From the NCBI RefSeq assembly GCF_053078305.1, contig NZ_CP166879.1: a stretch of 64,000 bases of DNA. One strand, 5' to 3'. The position numbers were made by a program, and so were the translations under genes. The notes under the pieces are model-generated. The model was not told the DNA's origin. It searched no databases and worked only from the letters and a program-made list of their open reading frames with translations. Shown in pieces: positions 17,777 through 43,318 of the stretch. The number at the start of each line of letters is the position of its first letter. Within the stretch, counting starts at the first letter, position 1.

Positions 17777-18922
17777 ATGGCACAGGGCTTGCCTGTATCA
17801 AACGTTGTTAATGTTGATGTGATCATGTCGCCGCGTGCAGCATCAGGGCGAAATTTTGGTGCATTACTCATTCTCGGCCCGTCCACAATCATTCCGGTAA
17901 GTGAGCGCATTCGCCGTTATTCTGCCGCGGAAGATATTGGAAAAGATTTTGGCGTGGAATCACCAGAATATAAGGCTGCGCAGGTGTTTTTCTCTCAATC
18001 ACCGAAACCTCAGGAGGTTTTTGTTGGTCGTTGGGTGAAAACGAAGGGAGACAGCGAACAGGCCACGCCTGAGACGCTGGAGCAGGCTGTGAATGCCATG
18101 CTCGATTATACTTCATGGTATGGGCTGGGGATTGCAGACGATGCAGATATTCCGGATGCAGACTGGCTGAAAGTGGCTGCGGCGATCGAATCCTCTTCTG
18201 TAAGCCGTATTCTGGCGATTACGACAAGCGATGAGAAATGCCTGCAGACTGCATCCAGCGATGATTTGGCATCAAAACTGAAAACCGCCGGATATTCACG
18301 CAGTTTTATTCAGTATTCATCGGGTAATAAATACGCTGCGTTATCTGCATTTGGCCGGGCATTCACGGTTAATTTCAATGGCAGTAATACCGCGATTACG
18401 CTCAAGTTTAAGCAGGCGCCGGGCGTCGGGTATGAAACACTGACAGTCAGCCAGGCATCGGCACTTGATGCAAAAAACTGCAATGTGTTCGTGTACTACC
18501 AGAATGATACGGCTATCCTCCAGCAGGGAGTGATGGCTAACGGCGATTTCTTTGATGAACGCCACGGCCTGGACTGGTTACAGAATTATGTGCAGACCAA
18601 CCTCTATAACCTGCTTTATACCAGCACCACGAAAGTACCCCAGACTGAAGCCGGTATTACCAGACTGTTATCAAGTGTTGAAAAATCACTGGATCAGGCC
18701 GTTCAGAATGGACTGATTGCTCCGGGCGTATGGAACGGTGGCGACCTGGGTCAGTTGTCATCAGGTGACACGCTGCCCAAAGGTTATTACGTATACGCCC
18801 AGCCACTGGATGAACAGGCACAATCAGAACGTGAAGCCCGTAAGGCTCCGGTGATTCAGGCTGCAATAAAACTTGCAGGCGCGGTTCATTACGCTGACGT
18901 ACAGATTAACGTTGTTCGCTAA
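17777..18922 (+). CDS. Putative tail sheath protein
   Basis: 381 aa; precedes tube, chaperone and tape measure. Confidence 0.45.
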
Positions 18923-18932
18923 GGGGAAGTGA

Positions 18933-19373
18933 ATGTCTACCTATTCTTTTATGGATGTCACTGCGACGCTGACCGGGCCGACCGGTTCGATTGACCTCGG
19001 GTACGGTTCGGCAAGTTCTGAAGAGGGGATTGTGGTTGCGATGGGCGGTCCTAAAAACACCATGACCATCGGTGCTGATGGCGAAGTGATGCACAGTCTC
19101 CATGCAGATAAAAGCGGGACGATTACCGTTAACCTTCTGAAGACATCACCGACAAATAAAAAATTGTCGCTGGCGTATAACGCACAGAGCCAGTCTTCTG
19201 CCACATGGGGGAATAACGTTATCGTGATCCGCAACAAGGTCAGCGGCGACATCATCACGGCACGCAGTGTTGCGTTCCAGAAACAACCGGATAACGCCAA
19301 CGCTAAAACCGGTAATACGATGCCGTGGGTGTTTGACTGCGGCAAGATTGACCAGGTTCTCGGGGAGTTTTAA
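18933..19373 (+). CDS. Putative tail tube protein
   Basis: 146 aa; gene order. Confidence 0.45.
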   Translation: MSTYSFMDVTATLTGPTGSIDLGYGSASSEEGIVVAMGGPKNTMTIGADGEVMHSLHADKSGTITVNLLKTSPTNKKLSLAYNAQSQSSATWGNNVIVIRNKVSGDIITARSVAFQKQPDNANAKTGNTMPWVFDCGKIDQVLGEF

Positions 19374-19376
19374 TAC

Positions 19377-19829
19377 ATGGAGTTCGAAATCAAAGGCGTG
19401 AAATATCGCGTGGCAAAACTCAGCGTTTTTGACCAGCTGAAAGTGACCCGCAAACTTCTGCCGGTGCTGGCAGGAATGATGTCAGATTTCGGGAGCATTC
19501 GCTCCCGTTTGCCTGCTGATGGCAAAATCGACACCGTGAAATTCGAGCAGTTAAAACCGGTGTTTGAAACCATGCTCCCGCGTATCGCTGAGGAACTGTC
19601 TTCCCTGACCGAAGATGACACCAGTGCGATTATTCATCCCTGTCTTGCGGTGGTATCGCGGCGTCATATGGACGGATGGGTTCCGGTATTTACCCAGGGC
19701 GAACTGATGTTTGATGATATTGACTTGCTGGTCATGCTGCAGCTGGTGGCGCGGGTGGTCGCCGATTCGCTGGGAAATTTTTTGCCTACACCCCTTACCA
19801 GCACGACGCAGAGCCTGCAACAGGGCTGA
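19377..19829 (+). CDS. Tail assembly chaperone (G-like)
   Basis: 150 aa directly upstream of tape measure; -1 frame open from 19724 to 20017. Confidence 0.55.
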   Translation: MEFEIKGVKYRVAKLSVFDQLKVTRKLLPVLAGMMSDFGSIRSRLPADGKIDTVKFEQLKPVFETMLPRIAEELSSLTEDDTSAIIHPCLAVVSRRHMDGWVPVFTQGELMFDDIDLLVMLQLVARVVADSLGNFLPTPLTSTTQSLQQG

Positions 19830-20017
19830 CGTTTAACAGCCTGCCGGACGGGCTGTCCTACCTTCTCAATCCGGTTGACGCCGGGTTAATTCCTTATACA
19901 GCACTTAAAGATGGCTCTGTCGATTTGTACGATATTGCTCTTTTGAATGACCATCTGGCGGTAAAAGCGGATAACCAGCGGCGCATTGAGAAATGGAGAG
20001 AGGATAATGAACGCTGA
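19772..20017 (+). other. Candidate programmed -1 frameshift: slippery GGGAAAT TTTTTG (19772-19784) with 78-codon -1 frame extension ending at 20017 (GT-like product)
   Basis: Heptamer in X XXY YYZ register of the chaperone frame; -1 frame has no stop between 19724 and 20015. Confidence 0.45.
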
Positions 20018-21995
20018 AACTATTAAAGATTTCCTCGTCTCGCTTGGCTTCAGTGTGGATGATGCAGGAGCGAAAAAGTTCGGTTCTGTCCTCGCCGGTA
20101 CAACTGCAAATGTCATCAAAATGGGGCTGGCCGTTGAAGGAGCCGCGCTGTCCGTGGTGGCCTTCACGGCTAAGATCGCCTCCGGTCTGGATAATCTTTA
20201 CTGGGCGTCACAGCGCACTGGAGCGACAGTCCAGGGAATTCAGTCTATTGGCTATGCGGTTTCGCAGGTTGGCGGCAGCGTGGACGCTGCGCGATCTTCT
20301 CTGGAAAGCCTCTCCCGGTTTATTCGTAATAATCCCGGTGCAGAGGGATTTCTGAATCGCCTGGGGGTACAGACACGGGATGCCAGCGGTAACATGCGTG
20401 ACATGGCCGCTATTTTTACAGGTGTAGGCCAGAAGCTCAGCGGCATGCCGTATTACCGGGCTAACCAGTATGCGCAGATGCTGGGCATTGACGAAAATAC
20501 CCTTATGGCGATGCGTCGGGGTGTGGGTGGTTTCTCCGGGCAGTACAGCGCAATGGCGAAAGCTATCGGCTTCAATGCTGACGAGGCGGCCAGAAGCTCC
20601 AACAAATTTATGACCTCCCTGCGTGAGTTTAGCGCGATGGCAGGCATGGCCCGTGACAAAATCGGCTCTAATCTTGCGGGTGGACTTGCGGGGTCGCTGG
20701 ACACCCTGCGCCGCCATATCCTGGACAACTTCCCGCGCATCGAGCAGACTCTGACGAAAGCCATAAAAGGCATTCTGGCGCTCGGGGATATTATCGGGCG
20801 GCTGTTCTTCAGACTGATTGAGGGGACATCAGGCCTTATCACCTGGTGGCAATCGCTGGATAAGCAAACGCGGGAGTTGATCTCGCTGTTTGGCGCACTG
20901 ACGATTGCGCTGCGCATTCTGAACAGTACGTTCTGGATGTCGCCGATTGGCCTCATTACCGCGCTGGCGGCGGGGATTGCCCTCCTGTGGGAGGACTATC
21001 AGACCTGGAAGGAAGGCGGCGACAGCCTGATTGACTGGGGCAAGTGGAAACCGGAGGTCGATGCCGCGCTGAAGATGGTTCGTGACCTTAAAACAACCGT
21101 TAACGACCTGGTGAAAGCGCTGGCGAAACTGCTCAATATTGACCTCAAATCATGGTCCCTGAAGTGGGATTTCAGCAACTTCATCGACCAGATGGGCGAA
21201 TTCAGCAAAATGCTGAACATGATCGCCGACCTGCTCAACGCTATCAAAGATGGCCGCTGGGCTGATGCCGTCAGCATCGGCAAACAGATACTTAATCAGG
21301 GCAGCGAAAATCCGTCAGCGATGCCGATGGTTACAGACAGCGCTAACAGTACTGCCGACTGGATTAAAGAGCACTGGGGATTCGATCCCCGCAGCGTGGG
21401 CCGGACGGTACGCGGCTGGTTTGGTGATGATGAGCCGGAACAACATGCACAGGCTACGAAACGAGGAGAACGGAATAACAATCCGGGAAACCTTAATTTT
21501 GCTGGTCAGGCAGGGGCTTCTCTTGAACGCCCGGGCGGGCGATTTGCCAGATTTGAAACTGCCTTTGATGGATTACGGGCTCTTGCTCGTCAGTTAATGC
21601 TGTACGCCGGACGGGGAATAAACAGTGTGGAGAAAATTATCTCTACCTGGGCACCTGCGTCTGATAATAACAACACAACTGCGTATATCAGGGCTGTATC
21701 GCAACGACTGGGAGTGGATCCCCGGGCTGCCCTGAATATGAGCGATCCGCAAACCATGTCAGCATTGATGAGCAGCATTATCCAGCATGAAAATGGAAGA
21801 AATATCTATTCTCGAGAGCTGATTAATAAGGCTGCCGTGGCGGGAATTAGTGGCAAAATGACAGAGGTTAACCAGCAAAATACTTACCACATTTACGGTG
21901 GCGGAGATCCGCACGCTGTCGGTAATGAGGTTGCACGTCGGCAACAGTCTGCAAATGCTCAGGTCATGCGAAGTAATCAGGTGAGGGTGGGTTAG
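20007..21995 (+). CDS. Tail tape measure protein
   Basis: About 660 aa; ATG at 20007 with SD GGAGAGAGG (ORF track begins at TTG 19986). Confidence 0.75.
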   Translation: MNAETIKDFLVSLGFSVDDAGAKKFGSVLAGTTANVIKMGLAVEGAALSVVAFTAKIASGLDNLYWASQRTGATVQGIQSIGYAVSQVGGSVDAARSSLESLSRFIRNNPGAEGFLNRLGVQTRDASGNMRDMAAIFTGVGQKLSGMPYYRANQYAQMLGIDENTLMAMRRGVGGFSGQYSAMAKAIGFNADEAARSSNKFMTSLREFSAMAGMARDKIGSNLAGGLAGSLDTLRRHILDNFPRIEQTLTKAIKGILALGDIIGRLFFRLIEGTSGLITWWQSLDKQTRELISLFGALTIALRILNSTFWMSPIGLITALAAGIALLWEDYQTWKEGGDSLIDWGKWKPEVDAALKMVRDLKTTVNDLVKALAKLLNIDLKSWSLKWDFSNFIDQMGEFSKMLNMIADLLNAIKDGRWADAVSIGKQILNQGSENPSAMPMVTDSANSTADWIKEHWGFDPRSVGRTVRGWFGDDEPEQHAQATKRGERNNNPGNLNFAGQAGASLERPGGRFARFETAFDGLRALARQLMLYAGRGINSVEKIISTWAPASDNNNTTAYIRAVSQRLGVDPRAALNMSDPQTMSALMSSIIQHENGRNIYSRELINKAAVAGISGKMTEVNQQNTYHIYGGGDPHAVGNEVARRQQSANAQVMRSNQVRVG

Positions 21996-22582
21996 TGGAT
22001 ATTCTCTCTACACTTTTTCATCAGCAGAGCAGAAAAATAGGAATGATTGTTCCCAGTGTTGTTATTTCAGAGAAGCATACAGATATGCTTGAAATAACAG
22101 AGCATCCGGTAGAGGTTGGGGCCGCTGTCGCTGATCATGCCTATAAAAAACCGTCAGAAGTGGTGATGGAGGTTGGTTTCGCCGGTGGCGGCGCATTGCT
22201 GGATTTTGCCAGTAATCTGACGGCTACCAGCCTGCTCGGCCTGAGTCCTCAGCAGACGTATCAGGAGCTACTGGATCTGCAGGAAAGCCGTATCCCCTTC
22301 GATGTGGTAACCGGTAAACGACTGTACAGCAACATGTTGATCCGGGCGTTGGAAGTGACGACGGACAAGACAACCGAAAACGTCCTGTCCGCCGTCCTCA
22401 CCCTGAGGGAGGTCATTATCTCCCGGACACAGCAGATTACCGTCGCGGATAAAACCAACATGAAGGAAGGGGCCAGCACGTCGGCGGTACAGAACAGCGG
22501 CAACAAAACCACAAAGCCTCCAGATACTTCACTGCTGAAAAGCATCACGGGTAACGTGGCGTCATTACTGGGGGGCGGCTAA
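21995..22582 (+). CDS. Hypothetical tail protein
   Basis: ORF track 195 aa; GTG start overlapping tape-measure stop. Confidence 0.4.
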   Translation: MDILSTLFHQQSRKIGMIVPSVVISEKHTDMLEITEHPVEVGAAVADHAYKKPSEVVMEVGFAGGGALLDFASNLTATSLLGLSPQQTYQELLDLQESRIPFDVVTGKRLYSNMLIRALEVTTDKTTENVLSAVLTLREVIISRTQQITVADKTNMKEGASTSAVQNSGNKTTKPPDTSLLKSITGNVASLLGGG

Positions 22583-41280: not shown

Positions 41281-41994
41281 ATGCGACACATTTTTCAACG
41301 ATTATTGCCCCGACGGCTGTGGCTGGCAGGGCTGCCATGTCTGGCATTGCTGGGTTGCGTGCAGAGTCACAATAAGCCAGCCATTGATACGCCAGCAGAA
41401 GAAAAAATTCCGGTTTATCAACTGGCTGACTATCTTTCTACTGAATGTAGCGACATCTGGGCGCTGCAAGGTAAATCAACTGAAACCAATCCGCTTTACT
41501 GGCTGCGGGCGATGGATTGTGCTGATCGTTTAATGCCTGCGCAGTCGCGTCAGCAAGCCCGCCAATATGACGACGGCAGCTGGCAAAATACCTTTAAACA
41601 AGGGATTTTGCTCGCCGACGCCAAAATTACGCCGTATGAGCGCCGCCAGCTGGTCGCGCGCATTGATGCGTTAAGTACCGAGATCCCGGCACAGGTTCGC
41701 CCACTGTATCAACTCTGGCGCGACGGTCAGGCGCTGCAACTGCAACTGGCGGAAGAGCGCCAACGCTACGGCAAACTCCAGCAGTCCAGTGACAGCGAGC
41801 TGGATACTTTGCGCCAGCAACATCACGTTCTACAACAGCAGCTGGAACTCACCACCCGCAAGCTGGAAAACCTGACCGATATTGAACGCCAGCTCTCGAC
41901 CCGCAAACCGGCTGGAAATTTCTCGCCGGATACGCCGCACGAGGGTGAAAAGCCCGCGCCATCCACCCATGAGGTCACTCCTGATGAGCCATAA
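41281..41994 (+). CDS. qseG: Lipoprotein QseG
   Basis: 237 aa with lipobox LLGC; between glrK and glrR. Confidence 0.85.
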   Translation: MRHIFQRLLPRRLWLAGLPCLALLGCVQSHNKPAIDTPAEEKIPVYQLADYLSTECSDIWALQGKSTETNPLYWLRAMDCADRLMPAQSRQQARQYDDGSWQNTFKQGILLADAKITPYERRQLVARIDALSTEIPAQVRPLYQLWRDGQALQLQLAEERQRYGKLQQSSDSELDTLRQQHHVLQQQLELTTRKLENLTDIERQLSTRKPAGNFSPDTPHEGEKPAPSTHEVTPDEP

Positions 41995-43318
41995 ACCTGC
42001 GCATTTATTATTGGTCGATGACGATCCGGGATTGCTGAAACTGCTTGGCCTGCGCCTGACCAGCGAAGGCTACAGTGTGGTCACGGCGGAAAGTGGCGCT
42101 GAAGGATTACGGGTACTGAATCGCGAAAAAGTAGATTTAGTTATCAGCGACCTGCGGATGGATGAAATGGACGGTATGCAGCTGTTTGCTGAAATCCAGA
42201 AAGTGCAGCCGGGAATGCCGGTAATTATTCTTACCGCGCATGGTTCTATTCCCGATGCCGTTGCTGCAACACAGCAGGGCGTTTTTAGTTTCCTCACCAA
42301 GCCAGTCGATAAAGACGCGCTATATCAGGCAATTGATGATGCGCTGGAACAATCCGCGCCAGCCACCGACGAACGCTGGCGCGAGGCGATTGTCACCCGC
42401 AGCCCGCTGATGCTGCGTTTGCTGGAACAGGCGCGGCTGGTGGCGCAATCAGACGTCAGCGTTTTGATTAATGGCCAGAGCGGCACCGGGAAAGAGATTT
42501 TCGCCCAGGCTATCCACAACGCCAGCCCGCGCAATAGCAAACCATTTATTGCTATTAACTGTGGTGCATTGCCTGAGCAATTGCTGGAGTCGGAGCTGTT
42601 TGGTCATGCGCGTGGCGCGTTTACTGGCGCTGTCAGCAATCGCGAAGGTTTATTCCAGGCGGCGGAAGGCGGAACGCTATTTCTCGATGAGATTGGCGAT
42701 ATGCCTGCGCCGTTGCAGGTCAAACTGTTGCGCGTGTTGCAGGAGCGTAAAGTGCGCCCGCTGGGCAGTAACCGCGATATTGATATCAATGTACGGATTA
42801 TTTCTGCCACTCACCGTGATCTGCCAAAAGCGATGGCGCGCGGGGAATTCCGCGAAGACCTCTATTACCGCCTCAACGTTGTCAGCCTGAAAATTCCGGC
42901 ACTGGCGGAGCGCACAGAAGACATTCCGCTACTGGCAAATCACCTGTTGCGCCAGGCGGCAGAGCGACATAAACCGTTTGTCCGCGCGTTCTCTACCGAT
43001 GCGATGAAACGCCTGATGACCGCGAGCTGGCCGGGTAATGTGCGCCAGTTGGTCAACGTGATTGAACAGTGCGTGGCGCTGACCTCATCTCCGGTGATTA
43101 GTGATGCATTAGTAGAGCAGGCGCTGGAGGGCGAAAACACGGCGCTGCCAACCTTTGTTGAGGCACGTAATCAGTTTGAACTCAACTATTTGCGTAAGCT
43201 GCTGCAAATTACCAAAGGCAACGTCACCCATGCGGCGAGAATGGCGGGGCGCAACCGGACAGAATTTTATAAACTGCTTTCCCGACACGAGCTGGATGCA
43301 AACGATTTCAAGGAATGA
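41984..43318 (+). CDS. glrR: Sigma-54-dependent response regulator GlrR
   Basis: Receiver domain, AAA+ sigma-54 activator motifs; 444 aa from [14 protein letters not shown]. Confidence 0.9.

What the first reader, a model, noticed from the sequence alone, without database searches (positions are those of the whole stretch)
19772..20017. Probable programmed -1 ribosomal frameshift in the tail assembly chaperone
The chaperone gene contains the heptamer G GGA AAT in X XXY YYZ register followed immediately by T TTT TTG, and the -1 frame is open for 78 codons from this point to 20017, overlapping the tape-measure start. This mirrors the conserved G/GT frameshift of tailed phages.
Basis: partly seen in the sequence, partly recalled or inferred. 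Interest (0 to 1): 0.4.

Follow-up and report, generated by a model that had tools for sequence, protein, structure and literature searches.

The report
Tail chaperone frameshift site, confirmed
This prophage almost certainly uses the classic "slip back one base" trick of tailed phages to make a short and a long tail-assembly chaperone from one gene; that is ordinary, but public E. coli annotation misses it and calls the extension a separate protein of unknown function.

Summary
The 150-aa tail assembly chaperone gene (19377-19829, Pfam Phage_TAC_15) lies between the tube gene and the tape-measure gene. It contains GGGAAATTTTTTG at 19772-19784. The -1 frame runs open from there to TGA 20015-20017, overlapping the tape-measure ATG at 20007.

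There are three: G_GGA_AAT, A_AAT_TTT and T_TTT_TTG. The missed middle one is the best slip candidate.

The -1 extension is real coding sequence:
- It matches Pfam DUF6889 (E 9e-20).
- Its substitutions against relatives fall mostly at third codon positions.
- It has no ATG or GTG start.
- It is conserved behind an in-register slippery site in about 80 diverged phage and prophage loci from Enterobacteria to Acinetobacter and Burkholderia.

GenBank records of two relatives (Mulock, Magia) already annotate the frameshift. RefSeq E. coli instead calls a separate "DUF6889 family protein" starting at CTG.

No conserved downstream RNA structure was found. An 18-nt block 9 nt upstream of the run is frozen at synonymous sites and holds a strong anti-Shine-Dalgarno complement. 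It is a candidate stimulator, by inference only.

Verdict: a new member of a well-known kind. Interest is low to moderate.

The parts
17777..18922 (+). Tail sheath gene (context)
   Evidence: Pfam DUF3383 E 2e-100; phrog_205 tail sheath E 4e-135.
18933..19373 (+). Tail tube gene, directly upstream of the chaperone. Presumed partner of the T domain.
   Evidence: Pfam PF11681 E 9e-61. The same family is labelled Phage_Tube_PhiTE and DUF3277 in RefSeq. The partner role is inferred from phage lambda.
19377..19829 (+). Tail assembly chaperone, zero-frame product (150 aa, the 'G' form)
19746..19763 (+). Block frozen at synonymous sites (GTG GCG CGG GTG GTC GCC), 9 nt upstream of the slippery run
   Evidence: In 18 diverged enteric-clade genes the pairwise synonymous difference is 0.02 here, against 0.48 gene-wide. 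The lowest of 98 upstream 6-codon windows is 0.32.
19753..19760 (+). Shine-Dalgarno-like GGGUGGUC, candidate 5' stimulator (inferred)
   Evidence: Forms an 8-bp duplex with the 16S 3' tail GAUCACCU at -12.7 kcal/mol. This is the strongest in the gene and in the top 0.04% of all 10-mers of the window's + strand. It lies 11, 14 and 17 nt before the three heptamers. Known -1 stimulatory SD sequences act at 9-14 nt (PMC5009743).
19772..19784 (+). Slippery run GGGAAATTTTTTG, holding three overlapping in-register heptamers
   Evidence: Identical in all 80 close IMG/VR relatives and in 17 of 18 diverged enteric-clade loci. The eighteenth changes only the first G.
19775..19781 (+). A_AAT_TTT, the most likely principal slip site (tRNA-Asn in the P site, tRNA-Phe in the A site)
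   Evidence: NNT_TTT is the one feature kept at this position in most distant clades. E. coli reporter values with IS911 stimulators / IS3 pseudoknot: 0.355% / 11.4%, against 0.112% / 1.05% for G_GGA_AAU and 0.247% / 0.77% for U_UUU_UUG (PMC4066793 Table S3). The C. amalonaticus prophage L187 has lost heptamer 1 but keeps this one.
19778..20017 (+). -1 frame extension (the 'T' part), giving a 213-aa fusion whichever heptamer is used
   Evidence: Open frame. Substitutions by -1-frame codon position against SEN34 are 4/2/22 and against Mulock 13/12/24. Protein conservation begins right after the slip site.
19892..20008 (+). DUF6889 domain within the extension (fusion residues 173-211)
   Evidence: Pfam PF21829 E 8.9e-20, 70.6 bits against a cut-off of 23.9. 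phrog_4364 E 1.9e-23.
20007..21995 (+). Tape measure protein with a C-terminal lytic transglycosylase region. Its ATG overlaps the end of the T frame.
   Evidence: phrog_2276 E 2.5e-282. RefSeq names it 'lytic transglycosylase'. GAGAGGA precedes the ATG at 20007.

Best explanation
This is a programmed -1 ribosomal frameshift in the tail assembly chaperone gene of a SEN34-like (Brunovirus-type) temperate myovirus prophage of E. coli.

Proposed mechanism:
- Most ribosomes read 19377-19829 and make a 150-aa chaperone.
- A minority slip back one base within GGGAAATTTTTTG (19772-19784). The most probable site is A_AAU_UUU, where tRNA-Asn and tRNA-Phe re-pair to AAA and UUU.
- Those ribosomes continue in the -1 frame to TGA 20015-20017 and make a 213-aa fusion whose C-terminal part is the DUF6889 domain.

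Shown here: the site, its register, and the coding nature and conservation of the extension.

Inferred:
- The slip itself and which heptamer is used.
- That the synonymously frozen GGGUGGUC element 11-14 nt upstream pairs with 16S rRNA and stimulates slipping.
- The function, by analogy with lambda gpG/gpGT (reviewed in PMC5009743): the shared N-terminal part coats the tape measure protein (20007-21995), the T domain recruits the tube protein (18933-19373), and neither ends up in the virion.
For: Layout and families:
- Gene order is sheath, tube, chaperone, tape measure.
- The upstream ORF is a Phage_TAC_15 member with the fold of the HK97 tail assembly chaperone.
- Three in-register heptamers lie in the zone where both frames are open.

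The extension is coding and depends on the chaperone ORF:
- It matches DUF6889 and phrog_4364.
- It evolves under purifying selection in the -1 frame, with 4/2/22 substitutions by codon position against SEN34.
- It has no ATG or GTG start.
- In three Klebsiella phages a -1-frame TAG lies one codon before GGGAAAT, which pins the entry point.

Conservation:
- The motif is present in 80 of 80 close relatives, and the -1 ORF is intact in 77.
- In 61 distinct distant loci, canonical heptamers in the overlap zone fall 90 / 24 / 2 by register. Fifty-one loci have an in-register heptamer, clustered within about 12 nt of the homologous site. Most of the rest keep NNT_TTT there.
- GenBank records of Mulock and Magia annotate the joined frameshift product.
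- Assemblies with T7 instead of T6 encode exactly the predicted fusion in one frame.

Signal strength:
- Reporter data rank A_AAU_UUU well above the other two heptamers.
- Synonymous-site freezing is seen at the slip site and at the upstream SD-like block.
Against: - There is no protein, ribosome-profiling or reporter data for this phage.
- Without a stimulator, each of the three heptamers gave only 0.07-0.12% in the E. coli reporter, near background.
- No significant or conserved downstream structure exists in the enteric clade, and there is no Rfam match.
- The SD-like element is not universal in the family. If measured from the canonical GGAGG core, its spacing would be longer than 9-14 nt.
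- The 18-nt frozen block is longer than the 8-nt rRNA complement, so part of its conservation is unexplained.
Confidence: 0.88

Rival explanations
1. The DUF6889 segment is a separate small gene translated from its own start, as RefSeq annotates it (54 aa from CTG at window 19853) and as several Klebsiella phage records do (50-58 aa ORFs).
For: PGAP annotates WP_071819661.1 'DUF6889 family protein' separately. Klebsiella, Hafnia, Providencia and Burkholderia records call short ORFs here. Pfam DUF6889 and phrog_4364 model only the last 40-54 residues.
Against: - In the window the -1 frame has no ATG or GTG, only late TTG codons inside the domain. PGAP had to use CTG.
- The Met used in Klebsiella records is Leu in the window, SEN34 and YP3.
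- Protein conservation in the -1 frame starts immediately after the slip site, upstream of every proposed start: F(F/Y)xRxxY and LPxGEDWL.
- The AlphaFold2 model of the fusion is confident, with pLDDT 89 and pTM 0.80.
Confidence: 0.04
2. The fusion arises by transcriptional slippage. RNA polymerase adds one U in the T6 run (19778-19783), and normal translation of that mRNA subpopulation gives the same 213-aa protein.
For: - A T6 run is present.
- Adding one T gives exactly the fusion frame, and T7 variants occur in assemblies.
- A mechanism other than ribosomal frameshifting has been proposed for T4-like chaperone genes (Vladimirov et al. 2022, cited in PMC12846349).
Against: - Productive bacterial transcriptional slippage is described for runs of about 9 A or T (PMC5009743). 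This run has 6.
- Relatives make the same extension with no long run: Bordetella GGGAAATAC and Burkholderia CCCTTTTAT.
- The runs keep the X_XXY_YYZ register at 90 / 24 / 2, which matters for tRNA re-pairing but not for a polymerase.
Confidence: 0.05
3. The overlap and heptamers are coincidental. The 178 nt between the chaperone stop and the tape-measure ATG are non-coding spacer, or the remains of a decayed gene.
For: Long open -1 runs near ORF ends are not rare in this window: 18 of 109 mechanical ORFs.
Against: - Family match at E 9e-20.
- Third-position substitution excess.
- Conservation across genera with GC content ranging from Acinetobacter to Burkholderia.
- The slip-site codons are invariant at synonymous sites.
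Confidence: 0.01

Closest known systems
Phage lambda gpG/gpGT -1 frameshift at G_GGA_AAG, and the conserved tail-chaperone frameshift of long-tailed dsDNA phages (Levin 1993; Xu, Hendrix and Duda 2004, 2013, 2014, as reviewed in PMC5009743)
   Same: - Two overlapping ORFs lie between the major tail/tube gene and the tape-measure gene.
[quoted passage not shown]
- The first heptamer here differs from lambda's by one base.
- The fold is related to the HK97 chaperone.
   Different: - No detectable sequence similarity to gpG or gpT; the Pfam families differ (Phage_TAC_15 plus DUF6889).
- This is a contractile-tail phage.
- The A-site codon is AAU or UUU rather than the highly shifty AAG.
- Three overlapping heptamers replace one.
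- A candidate upstream SD-like element is present here. To my recollection, unchecked, no such stimulator has been reported for lambda G/GT.
Phage P2 gpE/gpE+E' frameshift (recalled from Christie et al. 2002, not checked here: slip at T_TTT_TTG)
   Same: A myovirus tail chaperone with a -1 shift. The same heptamer T_TTT_TTG is present in register at 19778-19784.
   Different: - Unrelated protein families.
- T_TTT_TTG is probably not the main site here. It is weak in E. coli reporters and is absent from most relatives.
- Its conservation can be explained by the need for an aromatic residue in the -1 frame.
Klebsiella phage Mulock and Burkholderia phage Magia 'tape measure chaperone frameshift product' annotations (GenBank MN098327, NC_070954)
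   Same: Homologous genes, about 60% and 41% identical in the chaperone. Mulock carries the identical 13-nt run. Both records annotate the joined CDS.
   Different: These are database annotations only. The Mulock genome announcement does not mention the frameshift. Magia uses C_CCT_TTT.
SD-stimulated -1 frameshifting in E. coli dnaX and IS elements (PMC5009743; PMC4066793)
   Same: An internal anti-SD complement lies 9-14 nt 5' of the shift site. Here it is 11 nt and 14 nt before the first two heptamers, and it is frozen at synonymous sites.
   Different: - dnaX and IS911 also use a downstream stem-loop. None is conserved here.
- The pairing here is to the GAUCACCU part of the 16S tail and includes two G-U pairs.
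- Stimulation is untested.
Pakpunavirus/Vandenendeviridae tail-chaperone -1 frameshift with a conserved GTTTTT motif (PMC12846349)
   Same: The same type of argument and result: the -1 frame is open in all relatives, a T-rich slip motif sits at the 3' end of the short form, and the downstream ORF is routinely mis-annotated as a hypothetical protein. The tube protein belongs to the family named after KPP10.
   Different: A different phage group (lytic Pseudomonas myoviruses). Homology between the chaperones was not tested here.

Membership tests
G/GT-type tail assembly chaperone frameshift (Xu et al. 2004 class) | Two overlapping ORFs located between the major tail/tube gene and the tape measure gene | tested here: met
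   Order is sheath 17777, tube 18933, chaperone 19377, -1 ORF to 20017, tape measure 20007.
G/GT-type tail assembly chaperone frameshift (Xu et al. 2004 class) | The upstream ORF is a tail assembly chaperone | tested here: met
   [not shown]
G/GT-type tail assembly chaperone frameshift (Xu et al. 2004 class) | A slippery sequence in X_XXY_YYZ register inside the zone where both frames are open | tested here: met
   Three heptamers at 19772, 19775 and 19778. Register bias in 61 distant loci is 90 / 24 / 2.
G/GT-type tail assembly chaperone frameshift (Xu et al. 2004 class) | The downstream frame lacks its own conserved start and is conserved as an extension in relatives | tested here: met
   No ATG or GTG. 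PGAP resorts to CTG. Conservation starts at the slip site. Codon-position pattern is 4/2/22.
G/GT-type tail assembly chaperone frameshift (Xu et al. 2004 class) | Two proteins made at a fixed low GT:G ratio, both needed for tail assembly and absent from virions | not testable with these tools
   Needs western blot or mass spectrometry, plus genetics.
Pfam DUF6889 (PF21829) | Score above the gathering cut-off | tested here: met
   70.6 bits against 23.9, E 8.9e-20, fusion residues 173-211.
SD-stimulated -1 frameshift (dnaX / IS type) | An anti-SD complement 9-14 nt upstream of the shift site | tested here: met
   GGGUGGUC at 19753-19760, -12.7 kcal/mol. Spacers are 11 nt and 14 nt to heptamers 1 and 2, and 17 nt to heptamer 3.
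SD-stimulated -1 frameshift (dnaX / IS type) | The element is constrained beyond protein coding | tested here: met
   Synonymous pair-difference is 0.02 against 0.48 gene-wide in 18 lineages. The lineages are not independent. In distant clades an SD-like element recurs (about 11 of 57 below the 5% gene background) but is not universal.
SD-stimulated -1 frameshift (dnaX / IS type) | A downstream stem-loop or pseudoknot 5-9 nt after the site | tested here: not met
   Fold z-scores are -0.44 and -1.0. The consensus fold has 5 pairs and no covariation. Some distant relatives do have a hairpin 5-9 nt downstream: Bordetella z -2.4 and Acinetobacter z -2.0.
SD-stimulated -1 frameshift (dnaX / IS type) | Mutating the SD-like element lowers frameshifting | not testable with these tools
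   Needs a reporter assay.
Transcriptional slippage recoding | A homopolymer run long enough for polymerase slippage (about 9 A or T in bacteria) | tested here: not met
   The run is T6. Relatives have T3-T4 or none. The threshold is taken from PMC5009743.

The most novel reading that the evidence does not exclude
In the enteric clade the signal is compound and works without a downstream structure. Three overlapping slippery heptamers give the ribosome three consecutive chances to slip. A synonymously frozen anti-SD complement 11-14 nt upstream acts as the stimulator, as in dnaX and IS elements. As far as I recall, and unchecked, an SD stimulator has not been described for the phage G/GT class. 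Distant relatives with a single heptamer use a downstream hairpin or a stronger SD-like AAGGUGAUC instead, so the family would show stimulators being swapped around a fixed slip position.
Probability: 0.35. Interest if true: 0.45.

Novelty: new member of a known kind. Interest (0 to 1): 0.3.

Why it matters
Annotation is the main practical gain.
- The prophage occurs in 336 of 5426 complete E. coli genomes. RefSeq there lists the T part as a free-standing 54-aa "DUF6889 family protein" starting at CTG.
- Several Klebsiella phage records label the T part "NTP pyrophosphohydrolase".
- The results assign DUF6889 and phrog_4364 a role: they are the frameshift-encoded C-terminal domain of Phage_TAC_15 chaperones.

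The family is also a tidy natural series for studying how slip sites and stimulators co-vary. Different heptamers occupy one fixed position, with or without SD-like elements or hairpins.

It does not change what is known about phage tail assembly.

Tried and rejected
- Downstream stimulatory structure. Folding 19785-19880 and 19785-19835 gave z -0.44 and -1.0. The alignment fold of 8 relatives gave 5 pairs and no covariation. Rejected for the enteric clade.
- Upstream hairpin GGCG...CGCC around the SD-like element. Fold z is +0.68. EKP1 can form a different hairpin, but not with the same pairs. Rejected as unsupported.
- Rfam scan of 19500-20200 at E up to 1 found nothing.
- The first IMG/VR scan with the chaperone returned only relatives 93-100% identical, which were useless for covariation. 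A second scan used a T-domain alignment led by an Acinetobacter sequence.
- My first automatic pairing of G and T frames failed for high-GC loci, where the T frame is open far upstream. It was redone anchored on the T match.
- The other window hits from the heptamer-plus-extension screen are artefacts or ordinary. G_GGA_AAG at 42488 lies in a spurious ORF nested in a 478-aa gene. G_GGG_GGC at 22570 is an ordinary overlap with the next gene.
- Literature: no paper in the searchable library mentions DUF6889. The Mulock and SEN34 papers do not mention a frameshift.

Full report
**1. The observation**

The ORF 19377-19829 (+, 150 aa) ends ...CTG GGA AAT TTT TTG CCT.... A third heptamer, A_AAT_TTT (19775-19781), lies between them and was missed.

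The -1 frame is open from 19724 to TGA 20015-20017. The tape-measure ATG at 20007, preceded by GAGAGGA, overlaps its end. Any of the three slips gives a 213-aa product. Slips at sites 1 and 2 give the identical sequence ...GNFFAYT.... A slip at site 3 gives ...GNFLAYT....

In-register heptamers occur about 3 times per 1000 codons in the window's ORFs. This is the only XXXYYYZZZZZZ 12-mer on either strand. A long open -1 frame alone is weak evidence, since 18 of 109 mechanical ORFs have one.

**2. Context**

The window holds a temperate myovirus prophage. It is 97.7% identical over this stretch to Escherichia phages vB_EcoM-606R2/689R2. It is related to Yersinia YP3, Salmonella SEN34 (genus Brunovirus) and a Klebsiella group that includes Mulock. 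It is present in 336 of 5426 complete E. coli genomes.

The gene order is sheath (DUF3383), tube (PF11681), chaperone (PF21822 Phage_TAC_15, E 2.6e-30), then tape measure with a lytic transglycosylase region.

**3. Is the -1 frame translated as an extension?**

- It matches Pfam DUF6889 (E 8.9e-20, far above the cut-off) and phrog_4364.
- Over its last 54 codons, substitutions by -1-frame codon position are 4/2/22 against SEN34, 4/2/21 against YP3, 13/12/24 against Mulock and 22/12/35 against Hafnia yong1. This is the signature of a translated frame.
- It contains no ATG or GTG. Its only TTG codons lie inside the domain.
- RefSeq's separate "DUF6889 family protein" (WP_071819661.1) begins at a CTG that corresponds to window 19853.
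- The Met that Klebsiella records use as a start is Leu in the window's clade.
- Protein conservation in the -1 frame begins right at the slip site, with F(F/Y)xRxxY followed by LPxGEDWLLRPV. This lies upstream of all proposed independent starts.
- In three Klebsiella phages a -1-frame TAG sits one codon before GGGAAAT, so entry into the frame must occur at the run.

**4. Conservation**

All 80 close IMG/VR relatives carry the 13-mer, and 77 have an intact -1 ORF. Seventeen of 18 diverged enteric-clade loci (about 60-90% protein identity) have the identical 13-mer. The eighteenth, a C. amalonaticus prophage, reads CTC GGA AAT TTT TTG. That breaks heptamer 1 and keeps heptamers 2 and 3.

Distant phages keep the G/T arrangement with other heptamers at the same position:

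| Lineage | Heptamer(s) at the homologous site |
|---|---|
| Bordetella | G_GGA_AAT only |
| Acinetobacter | A_AAT_TTT, with or without G_GGA_AAT |
| Burkholderia | C_CCT_TTT |
| Ralstonia | G_GGT_TTT and T_TTT_TTC |
| Providencia | T_TTT_TTT |

A scan seeded with a T-domain alignment gave 61 distinct loci. Canonical heptamers in the overlap zone fall 90 / 24 / 2 by register. The out-of-register ones are mostly by-products of T7 runs. Fifty-one loci have an in-register heptamer, clustered within about 12 nt of the homologous position. The other ten keep NNT_TTT there, for example G_CCT_TTT.

Register dependence argues for tRNA re-pairing rather than polymerase slippage. So does the absence of long runs in many relatives. 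GenBank records of Mulock and Magia already annotate the joined product.

**5. Which heptamer?**

Sharma et al. 2014 measured all 64 heptamers in E. coli (PMC4066793 Table S3).

| Heptamer | No stimulator | IS911 stimulators | IS3 pseudoknot |
|---|---|---|---|
| G_GGA_AAU | 0.069% | 0.112% | 1.05% |
| A_AAU_UUU | 0.070% | 0.355% | 11.4% |
| U_UUU_UUG | 0.118% | 0.247% | 0.77% |

Background is about 0.04-0.07%. Their rule is that UUU and UUC are good A-site shifters while AAU and UUG are poor ones.

Three lines of evidence point the same way: these data, the family-wide NNT_TTT, and the natural loss of heptamer 1. The middle heptamer is therefore the best candidate.

G_GGA_AAT cannot be excluded, because it is the only site in the Bordetella-type clade. 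T_TTT_TTG may exist only because the -1 frame needs an aromatic residue there (F here, Y in distant clades).

**6. Stimulators**

No downstream structure is significant or conserved in the enteric clade, and there is no Rfam match.

Upstream, the six codons GTG GCG CGG GTG GTC GCC (19746-19763) show a pairwise synonymous difference of 0.02, against 0.48 for the gene. The minimum over 98 other windows is 0.32. The three codons between this block and the run vary freely.

The block contains GGGUGGUC (19753-19760). This forms an 8-bp duplex with the 16S 3' tail at -12.7 kcal/mol. It is the strongest in the gene and in the top 0.04% of + strand 10-mers in the window. It lies 11, 14 and 17 nt before the three heptamers. 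SD stimulators of -1 shifts act at 9-14 nt (PMC5009743).

Several distant clades have AAGGUGAUC at the same position. About 11 of 57 loci fall below the 5% gene background, giving a binomial p near 1e-4 with non-independent lineages. Many loci have nothing there. A local hairpin is not supported.

The stimulator role is an inference. The full 18-nt extent of the frozen block is not explained.

**7. Function**

This is inferred by analogy with lambda gpG/gpGT (PMC5009743). The common part binds the tape measure, the T domain recruits the tube protein, the ratio matters, and neither protein is in the virion. None of this was testable here.

**8. Verdict**

- There are three heptamers, and the unlisted one is the likeliest site.
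- The stimulatory element to look for lies upstream, not downstream.

This is a further member of a well-known recoding class. It is unannotated in RefSeq for this prophage but already annotated in two relatives.

Noticed in passing
window 19853-20017 (= L101:20554-20718, E. coli NCTC9022): RefSeq/PGAP annotates the T part as a free-standing 54-aa 'DUF6889 family protein' (WP_071819661.1) that starts at a CTG codon. Klebsiella phage records call the same stretch 'NTP pyrophosphohydrolase' or 'hypothetical protein'. These look like missed frameshifts, and Pfam DUF6889 and phrog_4364 appear to be built from such fragments.
   Followed up: yes
L102:1897-1910 (Logan SRR23924998); proteins P0001, P0121 (CDL28562.1, E. 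coli ISC7): Some assemblies have T7 instead of T6 in the slippery run, which puts G and T in one 213-aa ORF (a cluster of 16 members, about 10 of them full length). These are either homopolymer sequencing errors or prophage mutants locked in the GT form. By analogy with lambda, such mutants should be defective in tail assembly.
   Followed up: partly
L183 (Yokenella regensburgei GCA_051296125.1), 701-1853: A decayed relative keeps the chaperone and the 13-nt run, but its T frame is cut after ...PVDAGLIPY. The tape-measure gene is replaced by a 168-aa ORF and a tail-fibre-assembly-like gene.
   Followed up: no
L097:1615-1665, L099:1702-1752, L091:1558-1608 and similar loci L134-L180: In Acinetobacter, Burkholderia and related loci the nucleotides just after the slip site (ATTCAAGGGCTGCTTAC) are nearly identical despite very different genome GC. 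A hairpin starts 5-9 nt downstream (z -2.4 in Bordetella, -2.0 in Acinetobacter). The cause may be dual coding, a stimulatory stem-loop, or both.
   Followed up: partly
window 19986-20009: The mechanical ORF for the tape measure starts at TTG 19986, but ATG 20007 with GAGAGGA upstream is the likely start and is the one used in RefSeq. The T frame's TGA (20015-20017) overlaps it by 11 nt, which suggests translational coupling.
   Followed up: partly
window 22570-22576: G_GGG_GGC lies in register four codons before the stop of the 21995-22582 gene, and the -1 frame is open for 100 codons. That frame is simply the next gene (ATG 22582). It looks like ordinary gene overlap, not recoding.
   Followed up: no
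window 42471-42890 and 41882-43318: The lambda-type heptamer G_GGA_AAG at 42488 lies in a spurious nested ORF. The real gene is the 478-aa ORF in the other frame, which reads ...GQSGTGKE... at that point (a Walker-A-like motif). This is an artefact of mechanical ORF listing.
   Followed up: yes
[not shown]
   Followed up: no
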